A stretch of 64,000 bases of DNA, taken from the NCBI RefSeq assembly GCF_009914755.1, contig NC_060932.1; one strand, given 5' to 3'. The position numbers were made by a program, and so were the translations under genes. Shown here in pieces: positions 5,239 to 24,319 of the stretch (its first letter is position 1; each line of letters opens with the position of its first letter). Source of the DNA: the human T2T-CHM13v2.0 reference genome, Homo sapiens. Below the pieces are notes generated by a model. It was not told the DNA's origin and searched no databases. It saw only the letters and a program-made list of their open reading frames with translations.

Positions 5239-5868
5239 CGTGTGTGCGGGCCCCAGGTGTGCGTGTGTGGGAGCCCCAGGTGCGTGCGTGTGTGGGGGCC
5301 CCAGGTGCATGCATGTGTGCGGGCCCCAGGTGTGTGTGTGCGTGTGCGGGCCCCAGGTGCGTGCGTCTGTGCGGGCCCCAGTTGCGTGTGTGCGGGCCCC
5401 AGGTGCATGCGTGTGTGCGGGCCCCAGGTGCATGCGTGTGTGCGGGCCCCAGGTGCGTGCGTGTGTGCGGGCCCCAGGTGCGTGCATCTGTGTGGGCCCC
5501 AGTTGCGTGTGTGTGGGCCCCAGGTGTGCGTGTGTGCGGGCCCCAGGTGCGTGTGTCTGTGCGGGCCCCAGATGTGTGTGTGTGCGCGCGCGTGTGTGCG
5601 GGCCCCAGGTGCGTGCGTGTGCGGGTCCCAGGTGCGTGCATCTGTGTGGGCCCCAGGTGCATGTGTGTGTGTGTGGGCCCCAGGGGCATGCGTGTGTGTG
5701 CAGGCCACAGGTGTGTGTGTGTGTGTGCATGTGTGCGGGTCCCAGGTGTGTGTGTGTGTGTGTGTGGGTCCCAGGTGCGTGCCTGTGTGCGGGCCCCAGG
5801 TGCGTGCATGTGTGCGGGCCCCAGGTGTGTGTCTGTGTGTGGGTCCCAGGTGCGTGTGTCTGTGCATG
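5239..5868. repeat. UG-rich minisatellite with ~22-32 bp units (gtgcgtgcgtgtgtgcgggccccag), about two dozen copies
   Basis: Directly visible tandem units ending in gggccccag. Confidence 0.95.
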
Positions 5869-8567: not shown

Positions 8568-10008
8568 GCTGGTGATGGTGGTGATGGTGGTCCTGGTGGT
8601 GGTGTTTGTGGTGATGATGGTGGTAATGGTGATGGTGGGGGTGGTGCTGCTGCTGGTGATTGTGGTGATAGTGATGGTGGTGGTGGTGGTGATTGTGGTG
8701 GTGATGGTAGTGATGGTGGTGGTGATGGTGGTGGTGGTGCTGGTGCTGGTGATTATGGTGATGATGATGGTAGTGGTGGTGATGGTGGTAGTGGTGGTTG
8801 TGATGGTGTTGGTGCTGGTGCTGGTGATTGTGGTGATGGTGGTAGTGATGGTCGTAATGGTCGTGGTGATGGTAGTGATGGTGATGGTGGTAGTGGTGGT
8901 TGTGATGGTGTTGGTGCTGGTGCTGGTGATTGTGATGGTGGTAGTGATGGTAATGGTCGTGGTGATGGTGGTGCTGGTGATTGTGGTGGTGGTTGTGTTG
9001 GTGTTGGTGGTGCTGGTGATTGTGGTGGTGGTGGTGATGGTGATGGCGTGATGGTGGTGGTGGTGGTAGTGGTTGTGATGGTATTGGTGCTGGTGCTAGT
9101 GATTATGGTGATGGTGGTGATGGTGGTGGTGGTGATGGTGGTAGTGATTGTGATGGTGGTGATAGTGGTGCTGATGGTGGTGATGGCTGTGTTGGTGATG
9201 GTGATAGTGGTAATGATTGTATGATGATGATGGTGGTGATGGTGATGGTGTGATGGTGGTGGTAGTGGTAGTGGTTGTGATGGTGTTGGTGCTGGTGCTA
9301 GTGATTATGGTGATGGTGGTGGTGGTGATGGAGTGATGATGGTGATGGTGGTGGTGATGATGGTGATGGTGATGGTGGTAGTGATTGTGATGATGATAGT
9401 GGTGCTGATGGTGGTGATGGCTGTGTTGGTAATGGTGATAGTGGTAATGATTGTATGATGATGGTGGTGATGGTGGTGGTGGTGATGGTAGTGATTGTGA
9501 TGGTGGTGATGGTGGTGATGGTTGTGTTGGTGATGGTGGTACTGATTGTGTGATAATGGTGATGGTGATGATGGTGATGTGGTAGATAGTGATGGTGGTG
9601 ATGGCGTGGTGGTGTTAGTGATTGTGATGGTGATGGTGGTGGTGGTGGTGGTGATGGAGTGATGATGGTGATGGTGGTAGTGATTGTGATGGTGGTGATA
9701 GTGGTGCTGATGGTGGTGATGGCTGTGTTGGTAATGGTGATAGTGGTAATGATTGTATGATGATGGTGGTGATGGTGATGGTGGTGGTGGTGGTGGTGAT
9801 GATGGTGATGTAGTGGTGGTGGTGATGGTGGTAGTGATTGTGTGATGATGGTGATGATGGTGATGGTGTGGTGGTGGTGATGGTGGTACTGATTGTGATG
9901 GTGGTGATGGTTGTGTTGGTGATGGTGGTGATGATTGTGTGATGATGATGATGGTGTAATGGTGGTGATGGTGGCGGTGATGATGGTCATGGTGGTGGTG
10001 CTGTTGGT
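8568..10008. repeat. ~1.4 kb (TGG/TGA)n trinucleotide low-complexity array
   Basis: Continuous ggt/gat/ggt triplets. Confidence 0.97.
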
Positions 10009-10122
10009 GACAATGCCTGCAGGAAGTGGGGTGGGGCTCTGGTCTTGGTGCCACAGGACCACAGCCCCTGTGCAGATGGGGTTCTGTTGGGTGCTGACCT
10101 TGGGCCCCTGCACTCTCCACAG

Positions 10123-13605: not shown

Positions 13606-15842
13606 GTACTGACCCGCCCAGGCCCCACTCCCCACGACCCCACCTGGGCCCCCCACCTGCCTCCTGGGCCTCGGTGCTGTCTCATGCCCCAGGCTGTGCA
13701 CCTGCTGTCCCTTCAGGATGGCCCTCATGGCCCTCATCACCAGGGGGTGGGGGTGCCCACAGCCCCACTCTGACCTGCCCTTGGCATGCAGTGCAGGGGC
13801 TGGGCCAGGGTAGTGACCCTTCACACCTGTGAGTCTCGGCTTGCCTGATTATTGGGTGCCAGCTGTGTACCTGCCAGGAGATCCCCGCGGGTGTGGTGAG
13901 TGAGTGGCATGGGAGGAAGCTGGGGATGGACGGATGATGCGAGCAGCGGGGAGCTGCAGGCTGGACCTGGGTTGTGGGTGTCTGGCCCCAGAGCGCCAGA
14001 TGTGAGGCTGGTGACCGCGGCTGCTTGCCCCTTCGGGGGCCCCGGTGAGGACCTTCCCTGTGTGGGTCCTTGGGCTTTCCTTCCCGCTCTCCTCCCACCT
14101 TAGTGTGGAGGAAGGCAAGACTGTGGCAGGTGGCACGCAGGGTCACCGTCCTGGGGTCACAGATGAGCTGCGGCAGCCTGGGGGACCCGCCTGGGGTCAC
14201 TGGCCTCTACTGGGTCCAGCTCTGAGCCCACTCAGCCAGCCCCCACCTCTCTACTCTGGCAGAGCACCAGGGTTCACACCCACCCTCACATCCCCTCCCC
14301 TCTCGCCCCAGGAGAGGCCATCCACTTCCAGTAATTCCTGCTGCCATGAGCGGTGTCTCTGCAGGGCCACACCCCATCCTAGTGGGGACTCAGGCACAGG
14401 CTGGGCCTAGCAGAGAAACGTGCATGAGGGGTGATGGGGAGCTAGCCCTGTAGGGGCAGTTGGGGAGCCTACTGGGGGTTGGAGGGGCAGTGGGGCGCCA
14501 TCCTTGGGCAGCCCCAGACCCCTCCCCACAGCCCTGGCTGTGGGATCCTACCTTCTTTATTCCTTCCTCCAGGCGGGAGGCAGGAGAGGCGTGGGGTACC
14601 TGGCGGTACCCCAGGCACCTGGGGATGGAGGTTGTGGGAAAGGGGACAGAGACAGGAGTCCCACCCTGTACACCCCTCCCCAGGATGTGTCAGGAAGGCA
14701 GGCTGACCCTGGCGGCTGTGGGACCCGAGCCCCAGCAGCCCCTCCTGTCCTTGGGGCCACGTGGGGCAGGCTGGGCAGAGCCTGCTGCAGGCAGTGGTCC
14801 GTCACTGGTGTCCATCCTCTCTTCTCTGCTCCGGCCACATCAGAAAAGTAGGCTGCCCAGGAAAGAGGCCACCACCCATCAGGCTGGCCAAGGCTGTGAT
14901 GTGGGTGTCTGGGAACTCTGCATCCATTGTGGAAAGCAGGCCGGCTGTGTGGTCATGAGCCCTGAGCTGGAGGGCTACACGGTCTACCACCCTGGTCTTC
15001 TGGACGTGAAATGCCTGGTCAGGGGTCCATGGAGTCCTGGGGTCTCCCAGCCTCCAGCTTCTGGAACCTGGGCCTGAGGAAGTCAGGCCTTGCCCCTCGG
15101 GGTCCTAGCAGCATCTTTCTGCAGAGTGGGGATGCAGGAGGAGGGCCTCAGGGAGCCTCTGGCAGTTGGGGAGCAGAGAGTATGGCCTGAGACTCCTCCT
15201 TCCCCCCAGCAGAGGAGGCCAGGAGACAGGGGGAGACCCCAGGATGCTCAGGGCCAGTGGCTTCCCGGGGGTGCTCCAGGAACAGCTCTTGTATTGACTG
15301 GTAGCCTGGACAGTGGCAGGCATGGGAGACTTATGTTAGAGCCCAAGAAGAGCCTCCCTGGGTGCAGGTGCCCAGCCAGGGCCCTTATGGGGTGGGCAGT
15401 TAATCTGATGGGAATAGGGGAGGGAGATCAGGAAGGAAGTCTAGAGAGAGGAGGTGGCCTGCCCAGAGCAGAGAGCCAGGAGGAGTGTGACCCCAGGGAG
15501 AGCCAGGATTGGTGTCCCTTAGACAGGTTTCAGCTGCAGGCTGGCAGGGGCCTCCGGGCCCTGTGGGTGGGGAGCTCGCTGGTGGAAGGGATGCAAGGAG
15601 TTGCAGCAGAGGTGCCGACGGTGCGGGTGACACACAGAGAGGGCCCTGCACAGTTGGCAGCTGGGCTGGAGGTCACCTGACATCCCATCAGGCACTGGGG
15701 TTCCTGTGATGGAGGCACGGGAGGTGACCCTGGGTGGGGTAGGGGGTCGTGGTTGGCGTAGCCAGCATCGGTCCGGCCAGTGTCAGCCCCTGAGCCTACG
15801 GCGGCCCCCACCCCCACACCCCCACCACTCTCTGCCCGGCAG

Positions 15843-15928
15843 GTGAACATGGTCATTGGGATCCTGGTGTTCAACAAGCTCGTGTCCAAAGACGGCATCA
15901 CGGACAAGAAGCTGAAGGAGCGGGCAGG
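15843..15928 (+). CDS. ADGRB1: ADGRB1 window exon 7 ([30 protein letters not shown]5-ICL3)
   Basis: cggcag acceptor, GG|GTAGGA donor, 86 nt, ends in phase 2. Confidence 0.96.
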
Positions 15929-17845
15929 GTAGGACCGGGGCTACGCGGCTCCTTGCCCACCCGGAGTGCAAGACCCAGAGCCCACCCAGCCCCGGGGGAT
16001 GGAGAACGCTCCATGCCCAATCTGAGACTGCAGGTCCAGGGACCCCGGAGCGGGTGGGAAACGGAGGCACTGAGTACAGAGGCCCCTTAGGCTCAGCCAG
16101 CCCCTGCCTCTCACCGTGCCTCAGTTTCTCCATCTGACCTGGACAGGGTGGGTCCCATAAAGTCCTCAGAAGCTGTGAGACTGATTGTGCAGGGACACCC
16201 CGCCTCTGCCTGGCTTGCAGGATGGCAGCAGGGTGCCCCCAAGGCTGGGTGCTGGGGGTCCCTGGCCCCCCACTCCCCTACCACAAGGCTTGCTCCATGG
16301 CCAGGGGGAGGATGTCGCCTGTCCATGCAGGGACTCCCTGTCTTTGTGGGACCTTCATCATGGGGAGGATGGTGGAGAGGACAGGTGGAGCTGATGTTCC
16401 TCCCTCCGGGGAACCCAAGCCCAGGGAGTGCTCTCAGCACAGCAGCTGGACAGGGTGCTGGAGCAAGACAGAGGCGCTTGGGATGTGTGGCTGCACCCAC
16501 CTTTGAGGGACAGGGCCCTGGGCACAGAGGGGAAGCTGCGGGGCGTGGGGAGCTGACTAGGGCGGACAAGCCCCTCTTGGTCCTCCCGCCCCTCACCTCT
16601 GCCTGCTGTTCTGTGTCATCCAGCCCTGGCTGGTGTCTGCGTGGGCCCCTCCCCTCCGTGCCAGTCTTGCTTGGATGCTTGGTGTCTCTCTGTCTCTCTC
16701 TCTGTTCCTGTCTCTCTCTTCCTGGCTCCTCCTGCTGTCCCCAGTGAACAGACGCTTTCAGGAAGCCTTCCCCTTGGGTGCCTGTGGGTTCTGGTCCTGG
16801 TTAGGAACCAGCCGAGCTGGTGTCTGATGCTGAGTGCGTGCCATGGCCCTGGGGTCTGTCACTCTGGGTGGGAGTCGCGGTGCTTTGTCTCCTGGCCTGG
16901 GAGATGGAGGCTGGAACAGGCCTCTCTAAGGCCTTGCCCTACCTGTCCCCGGAACACCCTGTCCCACACTGCTCCCAAGACAGTGGTCACACTCAGAAGA
17001 GGTCCCCAGGGCTACACATCCAGGGTCTGAGCATGGCAGACTGCCTACCTGGTCGTAAAAGCAGCAGTGATCTCAGGGGCTCACCCAGGGTGGATGTTTT
17101 GTTTGCTTCTTAGAATAACCATTGTGGCAGATTCTATGGTTATAGTCCCATCTTAAAGCTGAGAAATGGAGGTTTAGGGAGGTTGAGTGGCTGATGGAGC
17201 TGAGCTTCCAGGCCAGGTGGGCACACACTAGAACTAAGCCCAGGCGGCCTGCACTCTGCCCACCTCACCCTGTGTGTGCCACGGGGGCCAGCTGCGTTAG
17301 GTGCACACAGCCCAGGAGCGCACCCAGACTCGCCTGTGTGGCCGTGTAGGTCTCGCCGCCCACGTAGACGGGATGGAGGTTGGGGTGGAGGGGCACCCAG
17401 TACACCGGTCTATGTGTGCACGCACACCCACACGCATGGGCACACACACGTGGGCATACACATGCCACGAGGACCTGCACGAGGTCCCTGCCCAGGTCAG
17501 CTCCCTCGCAGACACACGGAAAGGGGACTGGAAGGCGCAGCGGCCTCCCTCTGGGAATTTTGCCGCTTTGTGCAGACGGAGGCAGGGTCCACCCTCAGCT
17601 GAGCGCAGGGACCCCTCACTACCTTCCCCCCATGCCTGCCACTTGCAGCCCTCAGCCCTGCCCACCACAGCGCCCACGCCCCAGGCCTGAGTTCGTGAGG
17701 TGGCTGAGAGCCCCCAGGACCGTCCCTGTTGGGGCCCAGGCTGGACTCCTGAGGGGCTGGTTTTGCACTTTGGCCCCGCCCCTCCTGCCTGGTTTCCGAG
17801 AGCAGGGCGCTTGCTTTCGTTTCAGCCTTTTAATTTCACTTGCAG

Positions 17846-17944
17846 TCAGCCGCCCCCGCACCCCCTCGGGCGCGCCCTCAAGTGTGCCGAGTGTGGAGTC
17901 CTCTCTGCCGCCGATGCCACCTCCGACGCCACCAGTAACGCCAT
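17846..17944 (+). CDS. ADGRB1: Alternative in-frame ICL3 cassette exon (QPPPHPLGRALKCAECGVLSAADATSDATSNAM, +33 aa)
   Basis: ttttaatttcacttgcag acceptor, AT|GTTAGT donor, 99 nt, phase 2/2. The peptide resembles the ADGRB3 ICL3 segment (LKCAKCG...ASNAM). Confidence 0.85.
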
Positions 17945-18459
17945 GTTAGTGCCTCCGCTGCCACCTCCCTCCTAGGCCCACCCTTGGGGCTCCGCGCTCT
18001 GAGTCACCTTCTGTTTGTTTTATGTTTATCTTTCATTTCTTCCTTTTCTACCGTCCACTCTGGGTTTCTAGGCCACTCCCGTCCCCCCGATCCACTGCCC
18101 TCAGCTCCTCCTTCCATCCTCCCCACAGGCCTGCTCTAGGCCTGGCAGCACAAGGCACCGCGGGTGCAGGGCGTGGGGCCGGGCCTGGGCACAGGTGGAG
18201 TGCAGCTGTGGGCTGCGCTGCGGTAGGGAAGGAGCGGTGGTCAGTCCTGTCCCTCTGGGGCCCGAGTGTGTGCCAGGCTGCAAGCTGTGGTTTCTTGCTT
18301 CTGGAGTTGAACCTCCACCCCCACCCCTGGTGCTGCTGGCACGGAGCCCAGGATGGCTGATGCCTGGGCAGGGGTCTGCACCCATGACACCCCCGCAGTT
18401 CTGTGGTGGGGCGAGGAGACTGGCCCTGGCCTGCCTGATGGGAAGCCTCCCTCCCTGTG

Positions 18460-19560
18460 AGTGCACATGAGCACACATGTGAGAGCATGGCTAGGTGTGT
18501 GCATGTGTGTGAGTGTGCATGCATGCCACTGGGGGTGTGTGGGTATGCATGTCACCAGGTATGTGTGTATGAGTGTGCATATGTGAGTGTACATGAGTGT
18601 GCATTCGTGTGAGAGCATGACCAGGTGTGTGCAGATGTGTTTGTGTGTGTGTGTGTGCCCATGTGAGAGTACTTGCTTTTGTTTCAGGCTTTTAATTTCG
18701 CTTGTAGCCAACCGCCCCCATACCCCCTTGGGTGTGCTCTCAAGTGTACTGAGTGTGGAGTTCTCTGCCGCCAGTGCCACCTCTGATGCCACAAGTGTGC
18801 AAGTGTATGTGTACATGTGTAAGAGTGTGCCTTGATGTGTGCAAGCATGCATCTATGTGTGTGAGTGCAACCCACTGTGCATGTGTGAGCGTGCATGTAT
18901 GTGTGTGAGTGCAACCCAGTGTGCATACGTGTGAGCATGCATCTGTATATGCGTGTGTGAGTGTGCATCTGTGTGTACCTGTGAGCGTGCATCGGTGTAC
19001 CTGTGAGCGTGCATCTATGTGTGTGAGTGCAACCCAGTGTGCATATGTGTGAGTGTGCATCTATGTGTGTGGACGTGTGAGGATGCATCTGTGTACCTGT
19101 GAGTGTGCATCTGTGTGAGTGCAACCCGGTGTGTGTATGTGTGAGTGTGCATCTGTGTGGGTGCAACCTGGTGTGTATACATGTGAACGTGCATCTGTGT
19201 GGATGTGTGAGCATGCATCTGTGTGTGTACCTGTGAGCGTGCATCTGTGTGAGTGCAACCCAGTGTGCATACGTGCAAACGTGCATCTGTGTGTGTGAGC
19301 GCAACCTGCTGTGCGTATGTGTGAGCGTGCATCTCTGTGTGTGAGTGCAACCTGGTGTATATACATGTGAGTGTGCATCTGTGTGTGAGTGCAACTTGAT
19401 ATTTTGCGTTAGTGTGTGTGTATAAGTGTGAGTGTGTATATAATTGGGCATGTGCCTGTGTGTGCGTGTGTGTGTATGAGCGTGTGAGCATTGTGTATGT
19501 GGGAATGTGTTTATAGGTGAGTGTGTGAATGCGTGTGTGTGTGTGTACGCATGTGTGCCT
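18460..19560. repeat. TG-rich low-complexity/minisatellite array (gtgtgagtgcaacc / gtgcatctgtgt units)
   Basis: Directly visible. Confidence 0.93.
18672..18796 (+). pseudogene. Decayed local duplicate of the ICL3 cassette exon and its acceptor
   Basis: Aligns by eye with 17810-17937. Shows a 2-nt deletion, TGA at 18784-18786 in the frame entered from the homologous acceptor, CpG-to-TpG/CpA changes and loss of the ancestral donor. Confidence 0.9.
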
Positions 19561-22500
19561 GAGAGCAGGAGGCAGCCAGGGCCAAGGGAACAGGGAAGGA
19601 AGGGTTCAGGGTCAGGGGCTGATCTGCTGACCTTGGGCAGCCTTAGCAGCTGTGCATAGGGCAGGGCGGTATGGGCTCAGGTGGGTGGGGCCAGTTGGGC
19701 TTTCCAGCCTGAGGGGTCATTTCGTCCGTGCCCTGCCTCCCTCAACCCAAGGTGAGGGTGGTGCGCCCAGGTGCATACCCCTGTACCCTCCTGCTTTGCT
19801 CCCTGAGCCAGGCACTAGGGGTCCAGGGTTTTAGGAGCCGTGGGAGAAGAGCTCTGGGCCCTGGCACTGTGCAGATGCGAGTCGGGGCGAGGCTAGCCTG
19901 GGTGGGAGGAGCAAGCCCGGAGCTGGGGCAGCGTCCACACTGGCCTGCCAGGCCCCGGGAAGTTCAGGTTCTTTGGGGCTAGTGTTGCCCTTTCTTTGTC
20001 TCAACACCAGGGATGTGGCAGGGGCTGTGGGATCCACCCCATCTCATTCCATCAGAGAGAAGTGGGGGCCAGAAGGATGTTCCCTTTGCAGTCACTCAGA
20101 GCCTCTCCCCGCACCCCGGGCACCTGCCTCTCCAGACAGGAGCAGGCGCGGTGCAGCTGGGCACTCCTGGCCTCCCCTTCAGCAGCTCCCGGGCCTTTCT
20201 GCTTCCTTCCCACCGCTCTCTGCAGAAATGTTTCCCAGCCGCAGAGGCTGAGCTGCTGTGTGGGAGTAATTTACAGGTCCCCAGGCCCCAGGCCACCTGC
20301 CAGCCGCAGCAGATCGGGCTGTAAATGTCAGGCCTGGAGACCCAGCTGCACCACTGTATCCCCTGACGGGCAGCAGCAGGGGTGACTGACAGCAGGCAAA
20401 GAAGTCTCCATGGGGAGGGAAGCCTTGCACCTCCTCCCTTAGGACTTGGGTGAGGAGAGGAGTCCAGGGTCCCGGCTCAAAGAATACCAGCTTTGGAAGG
20501 GAGAAGAGAGATTCTCCAGCTTATCGCCATGGGAAAACCGAGGCCCCAGCCGAGGGGTCCTGCTCTGTGTCAGTGAGTGTTTCCTTGGCTCTGTGAATAT
20601 TGATGGAGGGCCTCCTCATCACAGGCCCTGTGCCAAGTGCAGGGACACAGCAGTGAGTGACAGCCAGGGCCCTGTCCGCTGCTGCAGCCTGGAGGGAGCA
20701 GCACGGTCATGGGCAAGGGAGGCCTCTCCGGACGCCTGAGTTCCCAGGCGTGGGGTGCACAGGGAGCAGGGGCAGGCTCTCCAGGGCCAGGGGAAGGGCC
20801 AAGGAGGTTGGTGGCCTCTAGTACACTCCAAAGTTGTACAGGGAAGAAGGAGTCCCATGAGGCTATTAGAGCCCATCCTATGTCCAAGAGCAGGAGGGGC
20901 GGGTGCGTGGCCAGGGCCACGGTACCCTGAGACCCGGGAGGCACTGGCCATGCAGGACCAGGCCCTCTGTCCTGGTGTTGCTCTGGGCTCTGGGCCTGCA
21001 CGTGTCCTAGCCATGGGTATGTGGTCATGCCTGAGGCTGGGGCCAGACAGATCCCTGCCGGACAGCATCACTGAAGAAAAGCAGACCAAGGCCTGGGGTA
21101 GAGGGCCGGATGGAGGAGAGGAGGAAGAGAGTCCAGGAGGCAGGCATGGCTGGCTGTGCCTGCTGAGAGGTCCTGAGAGATGACGACACAGATATCCCTT
21201 GGGGGCTGGGCCCTGCACAGGTGTTCTGCACTAGGGGTGGGAGCAGCATTGGTGGCCAAGCCACACTAGAGAGGGCTGAGGAGCAGAGCGTGTGGTTTTG
21301 GAGGCCCTTGTCCTGGCAGACTCCAGGTCATTCCAGCATCTCTCCTGCCAGCCCTGGTGTGCCAGCTCCTGCCTGGCATTCTGACCGCACACCTGGGCCC
21401 CCTACTCCCTATTCAGTCCTCCTGCCCCAGCTCCCCCTGTGTAGGAGGAGGGGAGGAGGGAAGCTGGCGCCAGCACCCATTCCGGGTGGTGATGACAGTC
21501 CTGCGGGCTGTGGGGCCTCCTGCGGGCAGGCACAGGGCCACCTCCCGAGCACTCACCGCAGCCGGGGTCCTGCTGGCCTCTGTCTGTGTTCCACAGCCCC
21601 GGGAAGCAGGTTGGTGTCCCCACTGTGAGCAGGAGAGCACAGGCTCAGAGGCCACGCGCGGAACCCAGTGGGTGGATGTGGGGAGGGGCCCAGGCCTTCA
21701 CTGCTCCCAGCGAGGCTGGGCTGCAGGGGCGAGGGCTGCTGTGAGGCTCCTGGAGGACCTCCTGGGAGGGGGTGGCACTGAGCGGCAGAGGCAGCAGGAA
21801 GGGTCTACAGGCAGGTGGCCGCTGGGGCTCAGGAGGCATGGGCGGAGCTGGCCCACGAAGAGGAGGAGGCGCCTGTCAGTCTGTCTGTTGCCGTCTGTCT
21901 CTGTCTCTCCTCTGCTCCTCCCCTGCTGGCCTTGGCCGTCTGTCTGTCCTCATCTCATTCCCTCTAAGCTTCTCTCTCTCCAGGTCTCTGAGTTCTGGGC
22001 TCCACCCTCCCCTCCCCACCATGGCCATCTTGCTCTGCCCTTCAGGGCCTGGACCCCTCGCCTGGGGCCTGTGGGCTCTCTGAGGGTCCTGGACCAGGGG
22101 ATCCTCCTTGGCGCACCCCACACCAGACAGCCCATCCCTCTCCAGCCTGTCTCCCTTCCCCTGTCACCTCCTAGACTGTCAGGAACCTGGATCTTCCCAA
22201 AGAGCCCTTCCCCCTTGCCCAGCTTCTCAGGACCTCCCTCCTGAGTCCTTGGGTCCACTCAGAGACCTTGGGCTTGGGGAGGGGGTGCTGGGACCTCAGT
22301 GTTGACGGTGGGCTCCTCCCCAGCCTGGGGCAAGGGCTTGAGAGGGGAGGGGCAGAGTGTGGGACAGGATTGGGGGAGTCCTGGGGAGGAGAGAGGGTGC
22401 AGACGCAGCCTGGGCAGTGGTGGACCCCTAGGGAGACTCACCCCAGAGAGGAAGGGCTGCTTGGCCCAGGCCCCCAGAGACAGAGACGGGGACTTAGGGC

Positions 22501-22595
22501 TGGGTCCCCACCGAGGCCTGGAGATGCAGGGTTCAGGGCAGGGTGTCCCTGGGGGCAGGGGCGGGGGCGGCAGCGCTGACACCCTCCATCCCCAG

Positions 22596-22767
22596 GGCCT
22601 CCCTGTGGAGCTCCTGCGTGGTGCTGCCGCTGCTGGCGCTGACCTGGATGTCGGCTGTGCTCGCCGTCACCGACCGCCGCTCCGCCCTCTTCCAGATCCT
22701 CTTCGCTGTCTTCGACTCGCTGGAGGGCTTCGTCATCGTCATGGTGCACTGTATCCTCCGTAGAGAG
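22596..22767 (+). CDS. ADGRB1: ADGRB1 window exon 8 ([17 protein letters not shown]...[15 protein letters not shown]6-TM7)
   Basis: atccccag acceptor, GAG|GTGGGT donor, 172 nt. Confidence 0.96.
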
Positions 22768-24319
22768 GTGGGTGAGGCAGCCTCTGTCGGGCCGGGCTCC
22801 TGCGGGGTCCTGGGGCTGCCGAGTGGCCTCCTCCTTCCCCGAGGACCTCGGCAGGGAGATTGTGGGTAGGCGCAGCATCCATGACCCTGACACATCTGCA
22901 GGCCTCGGTGGTCCACAGAGCGGGGCCTGCAGGTGAGCGTGTCCACCCCACTCTCCCTGGGAGCGGCCCAGGCAGTGCAGCACCTTCCCAAGGATGCCCT
23001 GCGCCCGCACTGGCTTGGGGGCGTGGGGGACGAAAGCACATGGGGCCCCCATCCTCAAGGGGCCTACAGGAGTGAGGAAGCTGGCAGCAGAAGTAGCTTC
23101 CAGGGCAATAGAGACTCCTGCTTCCGGCGTTTTCTGGATCTTTCCAGAAGGTGTCACTAGAAGGTTTTCACCAAACTACATCCCAACTACCGCCTGGCTG
23201 GTGGCCACGATTGGGATGCTCTTGCGGAGGCTGGAATGTGGGAAAGCATGCATGTCGACCTGGGTGGCGTAGGACACCTGCTTCCAGATCAGCGCCAGGA
23301 GGGCGGAAGGCCCAGGAGCGGGGCGGCCACCTCCCCCTTCCTGGGTCCCCCTGGAGAGACGGCAGAGGGGCTGTTGAAAAGCACACAGGTTCCCGAGGAT
23401 GAAGAATACAGGAGAAGCCGACAGCAGGGGAGCCGGTAGGCAGGGAAGCAGGATGAGAGGTGCAGTCCCAGCTAACTGGAGACAGCCCAGGCTTCGGCCA
23501 GCTGCAAGGAGCCAGACGGTGTCAGGAGTGGGGCCCGCCCCCTCCCCAGGATCTCTGGCTGCCACAGGAAGGTCAGGCGTGGGAGGCCTGGTTTTCCGGC
23601 CTTAGGTGGCGATTTCCATCCCAGCCTGGAAGGGCAGGGCTGCCCTCTTGGCCTCCGCGGCCTGGGCCTCACTCTCTGGGCAGAGTGAACAGAGGGGCTC
23701 TGGCCTGGGGCAGCTGGCACAGCTGAAGATGGGGATGCCGCCTGGAAACAAGTCAGGGAAGTGGATGTGCTGAGCCTGGGTCACGTGTCAGCGCAGGCCT
23801 CCCAGACCCAGACCTCTGCGGGGAGGTGTGAACGCCCCTCTCAAGGCAATCTGACTTCGAGGAAAGACAAGAGGAGGAAGAGCCAGAGTTCTGATGTCCA
23901 GCAGCGAAACGGCTCCTGTACCAGTCAACCACCAGCCGGGCAGTGCTCCACACTTACATCCCAGCAGCTCCTGATGAGGACAGCAGAGCTCCTGTTGGAG
24001 TTGCAACCCAACCAGACAAGCAGGAAAACAGCGTGGGGACAGAGGCAGCCCAGGAAGGAGAAACCTCAGTGGCCCCTTCTTATCCTCACCTGGGAGAAGC
24101 CGCTCACCCTGGTGCACGCCACATGGGCCAGGCCCTGGTCCCAGCAATGAACTCGTGTTAGTGAATCTCATGACAGCTTCTAAAGCAGGTGCCACCTGCT
24201 CCGTTCCAGACAGGACAGCTCCAGGGAGCTCGTCACAGGAGCTCATCACCATGGCTGGGATTTGAGGCCAGGCGGTTCTTCTTTGAGGCCACACTCCTGG
24301 CCCCCAGTGCCTGGCTTCT

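What the first reader, a model, noticed from the sequence alone, without database searches (positions are those of the whole stretch)
18672..18810. Decayed duplicate of the cassette exon inside a UG array could form an in-frame cryptic exon
Seen: a copy of 17810-17937 with CpG decay and a 2-nt deletion. Its homologous acceptor (exon start 18708) leads to TGA at 18784, a poison outcome. An upstream acceptor ttgcttttgtttcag (exon start 18688) with donor AGT|GTATGT after 18804 gives a 117-nt phase 2/2 stop-free exon, LLISLVANRPHTPLGVLSSVLSVEFSAASATSDATSVQ, in which the deletion restores the ancestral frame. UG repeats flank both sides. Inference: typical architecture of a TDP-43-repressed cryptic exon, born by exon duplication. 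I recall ADGRB1 being listed among TDP-43 cryptic targets but cannot confirm it is this interval.
Basis: partly seen in the sequence, partly recalled or inferred. Interest (0 to 1): 0.8.

Follow-up and report, generated by a model that had tools for sequence, protein, structure and literature searches.

The report
Silent decayed exon copy in ADGRB1
An old, broken copy of a small optional exon sits inside a UG-rich repeat in an intron of the brain receptor gene ADGRB1; the published knock-down table I could read shows that this intron is mis-spliced when TDP-43 is lost, but lists no use of the copy's splice sites.

Summary
Window 18672-18797 is a unique copy (84% identity, blastn E 2e-30) of 17810-17937, which holds the 3' splice region and most of the ADGRB1 intron-24 alternative exon (17846-17944). 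The copy has lost CpGs and carries a 2-nt deletion. It lies inside a 1.1-kb TG-rich minisatellite.

In the MAJIQ table of Brown et al. 2022 (PMC8891020, control versus TDP-43 knock-down i3Neurons) ADGRB1 is flagged as a cryptic-splicing gene in exactly this intron, but at other sites:
- The canonical junction 15928>22596 falls from PSI 0.85 to 0.64.
- Retention of 15929-17845 rises from 0.04 to 0.26.
- A new donor at window 20572 (TCA|GTGAGT) rises from 0.002 to 0.12.
- No junction to 18688 or 18708, or from 18804, is listed.

The in-frame exon is one of several equally plausible site pairings. Its donor is ordinary for this intron, and the homologue of its acceptor is not used at the native exon.

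Most likely the copy is a silent pseudo-exon inside a probable TDP-43 binding platform. Interest is low to moderate.

The parts
17810..17937 (+). Source segment of the duplication: 36 nt of 3' splice region plus most of the annotated alternative exon 17846-17944 (99 nt, phase 2/2, inserts 33 residues into the loop between KERAG and ASLWSS)
   Evidence: Alignment. Translation. Junctions 15928>17846 (PSI 0.076/0.080) and 17944>22596 (0.045/0.036) in PMC8891020 suppl. file 1.
18672..18797 (+). Decayed copy (pseudo-exon): 84% identity, 2-nt deletion, CpG loss
   Evidence: CpG o/e.
18440..19560 (+). TG-rich minisatellite (units of about 24, 44, 92 and 118 nt) flanking the copy on both sides; probable TDP-43 binding platform (inferred, no CLIP seen)
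   Evidence: TRF. Repeat families D1-D4 have members on both sides of the copy. TG coverage.
18636..18657 (+). (TG)11 tract (90% matches; pure (TG)8 at 18642-18657), 30 nt upstream of the 18688 acceptor, where a branch point would be expected
18673..18687 (+). Upstream candidate acceptor ttgcttttgtttcag (exon start 18688). Its homologue at the native exon (AG at 17824-17825) is not an annotated or reported acceptor
   Evidence: One search lists only 17846 as acceptor of the native exon.
18706..18707 (+). Homologous acceptor AG (exon start 18708), matching the used native acceptor at 17844-17845
18784..18786 (+). TGA in the frame entered from acceptor 18708; its T comes from a CpG>TpG change (17924 C > 18784 T)
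18805..18810 (+). Candidate donor GTATGT (last exon base 18804), in register with native donor 17945; not reported as used
   Evidence: Absent from the target LSV.
15929..17845 (+). Intron segment whose retention rises on TDP-43 knock-down (PSI 0.044 > 0.255, P 0.999, cryptic_junction TRUE). Read-through meets TAG at 15930-15932
   Evidence: stop codon.
20573..20578 (+). GTGAGT donor (last exon base 20572 = hg38 chr8:142531271) that appears on TDP-43 knock-down: to 22596 PSI 0.002 > 0.123, to 22696 0.01 > 0.059. No acceptor junction is reported for its exon
   Evidence: Sequence checked. U1 duplex -7.6 kcal/mol, top 5% of 508 intronic GT.
17415..17463 (+). CA-rich stretch complementary (70-80% over 20-35 nt) to parts of the UG array; it could pair across the native cassette exon (speculative)

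Best explanation
Window 18672-18797 (possibly extending to the GT at 18805) is an old duplicate of the ADGRB1 intron-24 alternative exon and its 3' splice region, lodged in a 1.1-kb UG-rich minisatellite. It has drifted to background composition. In its homologous reading it is broken by a 2-nt deletion and a TGA. It now behaves as a silent pseudo-exon.

Intron 24 does depend on TDP-43 for orderly splicing. The UG array is the obvious binding platform, although binding is inferred and not shown. When TDP-43 is depleted, the defect is not inclusion of the copy. About a fifth of transcripts fail to use the 15928 donor (retention of 15929-17845), and a strong GTGAGT donor at 20572, 1 kb downstream of the array, is joined to exon 25. 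Read-through ends the frame at once (TAG at 15930). The predicted product is therefore a receptor cut off after the fifth membrane helix, or an RNA that is not translated.

Shown here: the duplication, its decay, the frames, and the published junction values. Inferred: TDP-43 binding to the array, the continuity of the retained stretch up to 20572, and the silence of the copy in cells other than i3Neurons.
For: - The duplication and its decay are shown.
- The homologous exon 18708-18804 is 97 nt long and stops at 18784.
- PMC8891020 suppl. file 1 (header, rows) gives: 15928>22596 PSI 0.851>0.639 (P 0.997); retention 0.044>0.255 (P 0.999, flagged cryptic); 20572>22596 0.002>0.123; 20572>22696 0.01>0.059; native cassette junctions unchanged. 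No junction touches 18688, 18708 or 18804.
- Six hg38 coordinates map to window splice sites with one offset (142510699), and GT follows 20572.
- ADGRB1 clusters spanning the same intron are listed as differentially spliced and 'unannotated' in PMC12267460 suppl. file 1 (p 7.8e-6 and 2.4e-4).
- Only 2 of 33 acceptor-donor pairs are in frame and open, and three equal-scoring donors lie within 11 nt.
- The intron has no AATAAA or ATTAAA, and ADGRB1 is absent from the 6 supplementary files of the cryptic-polyadenylation study PMC12586162. Premature polyadenylation is therefore an unlikely cause of the retention signal.
Against: - Only one junction-level table could be read: i3Neurons, 4 controls versus 3 knock-downs, no NMD inhibition. 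MAJIQ drops junctions with very few reads, so low-level use is not excluded.
- The 20572 junction has dPSI 0.095 with probability 0.47, so it is weaker evidence than the retention.
- The copy's donor (-4.5) is no weaker than the native cassette donor (-2.7), which is used at PSI 0.04-0.08. A (UG)11 tract next to a good pyrimidine tract is what a repressed site would look like.
- I saw no CLIP data, so TDP-43 binding to the array is unproven.
- A second TG-rich array in intron 18 (5239-5865) has no reported event (one search shows all 9 ADGRB1 rows lie in intron 24), so UG richness alone does not predict sensitivity.
- ADGRB1 mRNA level is unchanged on knock-down (log2FC 0.0175). That fits nuclear retention but not strong NMD.
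Confidence: 0.65

Rival explanations
1. One reading: TDP-43 bound to the flanking UG repeats represses a 117-nt in-frame cryptic exon (18688-18804). On TDP-43 loss it would insert 39 residues into the third intracellular loop of BAI1.
For: - The exon is open and in frame.
- It has a good pyrimidine tract, 13 of 20.
- A (UG)11 tract lies 30 nt upstream and UG-rich sequence lies downstream.
- The donor is in register with the native donor and pairs with U1 no worse than it does.
- The intron is TDP-43 sensitive.
Against: - Neither junction is listed in control or knock-down neurons, although the gene is well expressed, and an in-frame exon would not be hidden by NMD.
- The homologue of this acceptor (AG 17824-17825) is not used at the native exon (hub annotation).
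- The region 18-45 nt upstream is UG repeat without a yUnAy motif (read).
- Donors at 18794 and 18802 score the same and break the frame.
Confidence: 0.05
2. A poison cryptic exon: the homologous acceptor 18708 is used with some donor in the array on TDP-43 loss. The exon carries TGA at 18784, and the transcripts are removed by NMD, so they escape detection.
For: - The acceptor and the TTAAT branch-point-like motif are conserved from the used native site.
- The stop is confirmed.
- The dataset I read had no NMD inhibition (methods passages).
Against: - Many stop-carrying cryptic exons, UNC13A included, are detected in the same dataset without NMD inhibition.
- No such junction is listed.
- ADGRB1 mRNA level is unchanged.
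Confidence: 0.07
3. A decoy exon: when TDP-43 leaves the array, the copy's splice sites (or those of the native cassette) are recognised and engage the 15928 donor unproductively. The intron is then retained rather than an exon being included.
For: - The observed defect is retention without new acceptor junctions, in a 6.7-kb intron that contains two weak exon-like units.
- The decoy model is described for introns longer than 1 kb (PMC6097662 and PMC7373989; search listing and start of abstracts only).
Against: - There is no direct evidence.
- Retention was measured only for 15929-17845, upstream of both units.
- The 20572 donor is not explained by this model.
- Intron retention is a common, non-specific outcome of TDP-43 knock-down (UNC13A and UNC13B).
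Confidence: 0.1
4. The retention signal and the orphan donor at 20572 come from a cryptic intronic transcription start or other non-splicing change. The array and the copy would then be irrelevant bystanders.
For: - MAJIQ gives no start for the exon ending at 20572.
- Short human transcripts that start near exon 25 are reported (PMC11711277 passage).
Against: - The canonical junction falls in both LSVs by about the amount the new paths gain.
- There is no CpG-rich patch upstream of 20572 (o/e 0.22-0.29).
Confidence: 0.1

Closest known systems
TDP-43-repressed cryptic exons (STMN2, UNC13A and others)
   Same: It is an unannotated exon-like unit deep in an intron of a neuronal gene, with UG-rich sequence next to its splice sites. 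The host intron is mis-spliced on TDP-43 knock-down.
   Different: The defining behaviour, inclusion on TDP-43 loss, is not seen for this unit. The novel site used is 1.77 kb downstream, and the main change is intron retention.
TDP-43-dependent intron retention in UNC13A (exons 31-32) and UNC13B (exons 21-22), Brown et al. 2022
   Same: Retention rises on knock-down in a synaptic gene, in the same dataset and called by the same method.
   Different: For UNC13A and UNC13B the authors show TDP-43 binding peaks near the retained introns. For ADGRB1 I saw no binding data, and the event is not discussed in the main text.
Alternative exons and pseudo-exons born by tandem exon duplication (known class; recalled, no paper read here)
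   Same: It is a same-strand copy of an exon with its acceptor region, within the same intron and 862 nt downstream.
   Different: The copy is frameshifted in its homologous reading. Clear homology stops 8 nt before the donor. It is embedded in a minisatellite rather than in a clean tandem block.
CFTR exon 9 (UG)m(U)n tract, where TDP-43 bound just upstream of an acceptor silences the exon (recalled, no paper read here)
   Same: A UG run lies immediately before a pyrimidine tract and AG (18636-18687).
   Different: In CFTR a constitutive exon is skipped. Here the unit is not detectably used even when TDP-43 is depleted.
Decoy exons that promote intron retention (PMC6097662, PMC7373989; listing and abstract starts only)
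   Same: Weak exon-like units lie inside a long intron that shows regulated retention.
   Different: No test of decoy activity exists. Whether retention extends over the copy is unknown.

Membership tests
TDP-43-repressed cryptic exon | Unannotated intronic unit bounded by AG and GT splice signals | tested here: met
   AG at 18686-87 and 18706-07, and GT at 18805-06. It is not among the RefSeq exons listed by the hub. The donor is ordinary (U1 duplex -4.5, 31st percentile of 508 intronic GT).
TDP-43-repressed cryptic exon | UG-rich TDP-43 motif within or next to the exon | tested here: met
   (TG)11 at 18636-18657. TG coverage is 0.34-0.52 across 18401-19600 against a window mean of 0.18.
TDP-43-repressed cryptic exon | Direct TDP-43 binding (CLIP) | not testable with these tools
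   No CLIP data for ADGRB1 were seen. Main-text searches for ADGRB1 or BAI1 with TDP-43 gave nothing relevant.
TDP-43-repressed cryptic exon | Junctions near absent in controls and gained on TDP-43 depletion | tested here: not met
   PMC8891020 suppl. file 1: both LSVs around the intron list no junction at 18688, 18708 or 18804, in control or knock-down. This is one dataset, without NMD inhibition.
TDP-43-repressed cryptic exon | Detected in patient tissue with TDP-43 pathology | not tested
   ADGRB1 is absent from the supplements I could search for PMC8891019 (12 of 14 files), PMC12143990 (1 file) and PMC12297563 (1 file).
Exon duplication product | Significant same-strand similarity to a neighbouring exon of the same gene | tested here: met
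   83.5% over 127 columns, E 2e-30, 862 nt downstream in the same intron.
Exon duplication product | Both splice sites copied | tested here: inconclusive
   The acceptor region is copied. The GT at 18805 is in register with the native GT at 17945, but 7 straight mismatches lie between, and TGTnnGTG is commonplace in the array.
Exon duplication product | Copy keeps the reading frame of the parent exon | tested here: not met
   The homologous exon is 97 nt long and stops at TGA 18784. The frame is kept only through a non-homologous upstream acceptor.
TDP-43-dependent intron retention | Retention rises on TDP-43 depletion | tested here: met
   15929-17845: PSI 0.044 > 0.255, probability 0.999. 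This is a published table, not my own read counts.
Decoy exon | Decoy splice sites are required for retention of the host intron | not testable with these tools
   This needs a minigene or antisense experiment.

The most novel reading that the evidence does not exclude
The UG minisatellite and the pseudo-exon inside it form a TDP-43-gated decoy. With TDP-43 bound, the copy's splice signals are hidden and intron 24 is removed cleanly. Without TDP-43, the copy is recognised but cannot complete splicing. It then traps the exon-24 donor, so about a fifth of ADGRB1 transcripts keep the 5' part of the intron, and some of them use the 20572 donor. This would be a mechanism by which TDP-43 loss causes intron retention rather than exon inclusion, and it would cut a synaptic adhesion receptor off after its fifth membrane helix.
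Probability: 0.1. Interest if true: 0.55.

Novelty: new member of a known kind. Interest (0 to 1): 0.3.

Why it matters
The proposed in-frame neo-peptide would have been a candidate disease marker, but the data I could read give it no support, so it should not be pursued on sequence grounds alone.

What remains useful is this. ADGRB1 (BAI1), a synapse-organising receptor, loses about a fifth of its correctly spliced intron-24 junctions when TDP-43 is depleted in human neurons. The event sits in published supplementary tables (PMC8891020, PMC12267460). No main text that my searches reached discusses it.

The retained RNA stops immediately after exon 24. If translated, it would give a receptor lacking helices 6-7 and the whole signalling tail.

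The case also shows that UG-flanked, exon-like architecture is not sufficient to predict a TDP-43 cryptic exon.

Tried and rejected
Searches for further copies
- A DNA search of the window's own genome with 17810-17944 found only itself. It missed even the 84% copy, so it says little.
- A protein search with the cassette peptide found itself, the copy (E 0.14) and one chance-level hit on another chromosome (E 2.5). Nothing appeared at the paralogues.

Other features of the intron
- Rfam over 15800-22800 gave 0 matches.
- Cryptic polyadenylation as the cause of the retention signal: there is no AATAAA or ATTAAA in the intron, and ADGRB1 is absent from 6 supplementary files of PMC12586162.

Literature
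- Main text: ADGRB1 + cryptic exon + TDP-43 gave 0 papers. ADGRB1 + TDP-43 gave 5 papers, judged irrelevant from titles and abstract starts. BAI1 + TDP-43 + cryptic gave 3 papers; in the one I opened the only mention is Baiap3, and the other two were judged from the listing alone. ADGRB1 + STMN2 + UNC13A gave none in a TDP-43 setting.
- Supplements without ADGRB1: PMC12297563 (1 file), PMC8891019 (12 of 14 files searched), PMC12143990 (1 file).
It, and those of preprints PMC12262666 (NMD inhibition) and PMC12667841, may bear on the claim.
- ADGRB1 isoform papers (PMC11711277, PMC11039983, PMC6316137; passages only) do not describe the human intron-24 cassette or its copy. PMC11711277 mentions a new exon in intron 24 in mouse transcripts.

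- Earlier findings of this scan were not open.
- No vertebrate genomes other than the window's own are on hand, so the duplication could not be dated by comparison.
- No MaxEnt-type splice model is installed. I used consensus matches and U1 duplex energy instead.

Full report
**1. The observation**

- A pairwise alignment, the repeat finder (family D5) and a sensitive blastn all show that 18672-18796 copies 17810-17936. Identity is 83.5% over 127 columns and E is 2e-30.
- It is the only significant match between the two halves of the intron, and the only other copy in the 64-kb window.
- Over 126 ungapped columns there are 20 substitutions. Ten are CpG transitions, and in nine of them the original keeps the CpG. 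Eight are other transitions and two are transversions. There is also one 2-nt deletion.
- The original has 11 CpGs and the copy 3. CpG observed/expected is 1.0 in the original, 0.33 in the copy and 0.28 in the intron as a whole.

So 'CpG decay and a 2-nt deletion' is correct.

**2. Frames**

Joining the annotated coding exons shows that the intron between 15928 and 22596 is phase 2. By my count of the 14 exons in the window, out of 31, this is intron 24.
- The annotated alternative exon 17846-17944 (99 nt) adds 33 residues between KERAG and ASLWSS. From the hydrophobic stretches on either side I read this as the third intracellular loop (inference).
- Exon 18708-18804 (97 nt) reads QPPPYPLGCALKCTECGVLCRQCHL and then stops at TGA 18784.
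The last part is back in the ancestral frame, because 20 extra bases minus the 2 deleted make 18.

**3. Surroundings**

The copy lies in a TG-rich minisatellite running from about 18440 to 19560.
- Members of the same repeat families lie on both sides of the copy.
- TG-dinucleotide coverage is 0.34-0.52 there, against a window mean of 0.18.
- A (TG)11 tract (90% matches) at 18636-18657 ends 30 nt before the upstream acceptor.

Seven straight mismatches separate it from the clear homology, and such strings are common in the array. Whether the donor was copied is therefore open.

**4. How special is the in-frame exon?**

- I took acceptors with at least 12 pyrimidines in 20, and donors matching at least 6 of 9 consensus positions. 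Of the 33 pairs, 2 are in frame and open.
- Three donors with the same score lie at 18794, 18802 and 18804, and only the last keeps the frame.
- By duplex energy with the 5' end of U1 (motif recalled), the 18804 donor scores -4.5 kcal/mol. That is the 31st percentile of 508 GT sites in the intron, and 69 of 215 GT sites in the array are as good or better.
- In fairness, the native cassette donor is weaker still (-2.7) and is nevertheless used.
- The upstream acceptor's homologue at the native exon (AG 17824-17825) is not an annotated exon start, and it is not among the junctions reported in neurons.
- By homology the copy would use 18708, which gives the stop-containing version.

**5. Published data on TDP-43 loss**

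No paper in the library holds ADGRB1 together with 'cryptic exon' and TDP-43 in its main text. Supplementary file 1 of Brown et al. 2022 (PMC8891020) does hold nine ADGRB1 rows, all in this intron (header; methods passages). The file is MAJIQ output on hg38, comparing control (n=4) with CRISPRi TDP-43 knock-down (n=3) i3Neurons.

Six hg38 coordinates map to window splice sites with a single offset of 142510699: 15928, 17846, 17944, 20572, 22596 and 22696. The sequence after 20572 is GTGAGT.

From exon 24 (source LSV):

| Path | PSI control | PSI knock-down | Note |
|---|---|---|---|
| to 17846 | 0.076 | 0.080 | unchanged |
| to 22596 | 0.851 | 0.639 | probability 0.997 |
| to 22696 | 0.028 | 0.027 | unchanged |
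| retention of 15929-17845 | 0.044 | 0.255 | probability 0.999, cryptic_junction TRUE |

Into exon 25 (target LSV):

| Path | PSI control | PSI knock-down | Note |
|---|---|---|---|
| 15928 to 22596 | 0.913 | 0.747 | |
| 17944 to 22596 | 0.045 | 0.036 | |
| 20572 to 22596 | 0.002 | 0.123 | novel donor, probability 0.47 |
| 20572 to 22696 | 0.01 | 0.059 | novel donor |

- The exon ending at 20572 has no reported start.
- No junction to 18688 or 18708, or from 18804, is listed.
- ADGRB1 is well expressed and unchanged in level (baseMean 7998, log2FC 0.0175).
- A second paper (PMC12267460, suppl. file 1) lists LeafCutter clusters spanning the same intron as differentially spliced and 'unannotated', with p 7.8e-6 and 2.4e-4. 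I could not tell which dataset each list belongs to. One dataset that paper re-analyses is Brown's own, so the support is not independent for certain.

**6. Reading**

The mechanism is not the one proposed.
- The copy behaves as a silent pseudo-exon.
- The defect on TDP-43 loss is failure to use the exon-24 donor in about a fifth of transcripts, together with a strong cryptic donor 1 kb beyond the array.
- Read-through of the exon-24 donor meets TAG at 15930 at once. The product would end at KERAG, after the fifth membrane helix, if it were translated.
- Premature polyadenylation is unlikely: the intron has no canonical hexamer, and ADGRB1 is absent from the supplements of the cryptic-polyadenylation study.
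- That TDP-43 acts through the UG array is an inference from its known preference for UG repeats (established knowledge, recalled). I saw no CLIP data.
- A second TG-rich array in intron 18 (5239-5865) has no reported event, which cautions against reading UG richness as sufficient.

**7. Rivals**

- The in-frame exon is the weakest, because NMD could not hide it.
- A poison exon from 18708 could be hidden by NMD. However, many stop-carrying cryptic exons are seen in the same data, and the mRNA level does not fall.
- The decoy-exon reading has the copy's sites, once uncovered, trapping the upstream donor and causing retention. It fits the pattern of retention without new acceptor junctions and is the most novel reading left open. 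Nothing tests it here (listing and abstract starts only).
- A cryptic transcription start upstream of 20572 would explain the orphan donor, but not the matching fall of the canonical junction.

**8. Age and origin**

- Non-CpG divergence is about 10% (10 changes in about 104 positions). With recalled mammalian substitution rates this points to tens of millions of years.
[quoted passage not shown] Homology of that mouse exon was not checked.
- The left junction shares GAGAG(C/T)A with both the array unit and the sequence 13 nt upstream of the original (read). This hints at a microhomology-mediated event in an unstable array (speculation).

**9. Verdict**

The specific neo-exon is not supported by the only junction-level data I could read. 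The event in this intron is already in public tables but is undiscussed. Interest is low to moderate.

Noticed in passing
window 15927-15932: The donor of exon 24 (AGG|GTAGGA) places TAG in frame two bases into the intron. Any read-through therefore ends the protein at ...KERAG, after the fifth membrane helix.
   Followed up: partly
window 20573-20578: A GTGAGT donor (last exon base 20572, hg38 chr8:142531271) is gained on TDP-43 knock-down in PMC8891020 suppl. file 1. No acceptor junction is reported for it, so the structure of these transcripts is unknown.
   Followed up: partly
window 17415-17463: A CA-rich stretch just after the RefSeq enhancer 16913-17414 is 70-80% complementary over 20-35 nt to several places in the UG array (for example 18635-18663). 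In the pre-mRNA this could pair across the native cassette exon.
   Followed up: no
window 17200-18000: A local CpG-rich patch (o/e 0.44-0.62, and 1.0 over 17810-17944) surrounds the native cassette exon in an otherwise CpG-poor intron (0.28). The exon's CpGs may be kept by lack of methylation rather than by selection on the peptide.
   Followed up: partly
window 5239-5865: A second TG-rich minisatellite (25-nt unit CGTGTGTGCGGGCCCCAGGTGCGTG, with TG runs of up to 10) lies in intron 18. Brown et al.'s table has no ADGRB1 event there.
   Followed up: partly
window 8570-10009: A 1.4-kb array of TGG/TGA triplets (units TGGTGA and TGGTGGTGGTGGTGA) lies in intron 19.
   Followed up: no
None is reported as used.
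   Followed up: no
window 22696: An alternative acceptor 100 nt inside exon 25 is used at about 3% in i3Neurons. It also receives the 20572 donor on knock-down (0.01 > 0.059).
   Followed up: no
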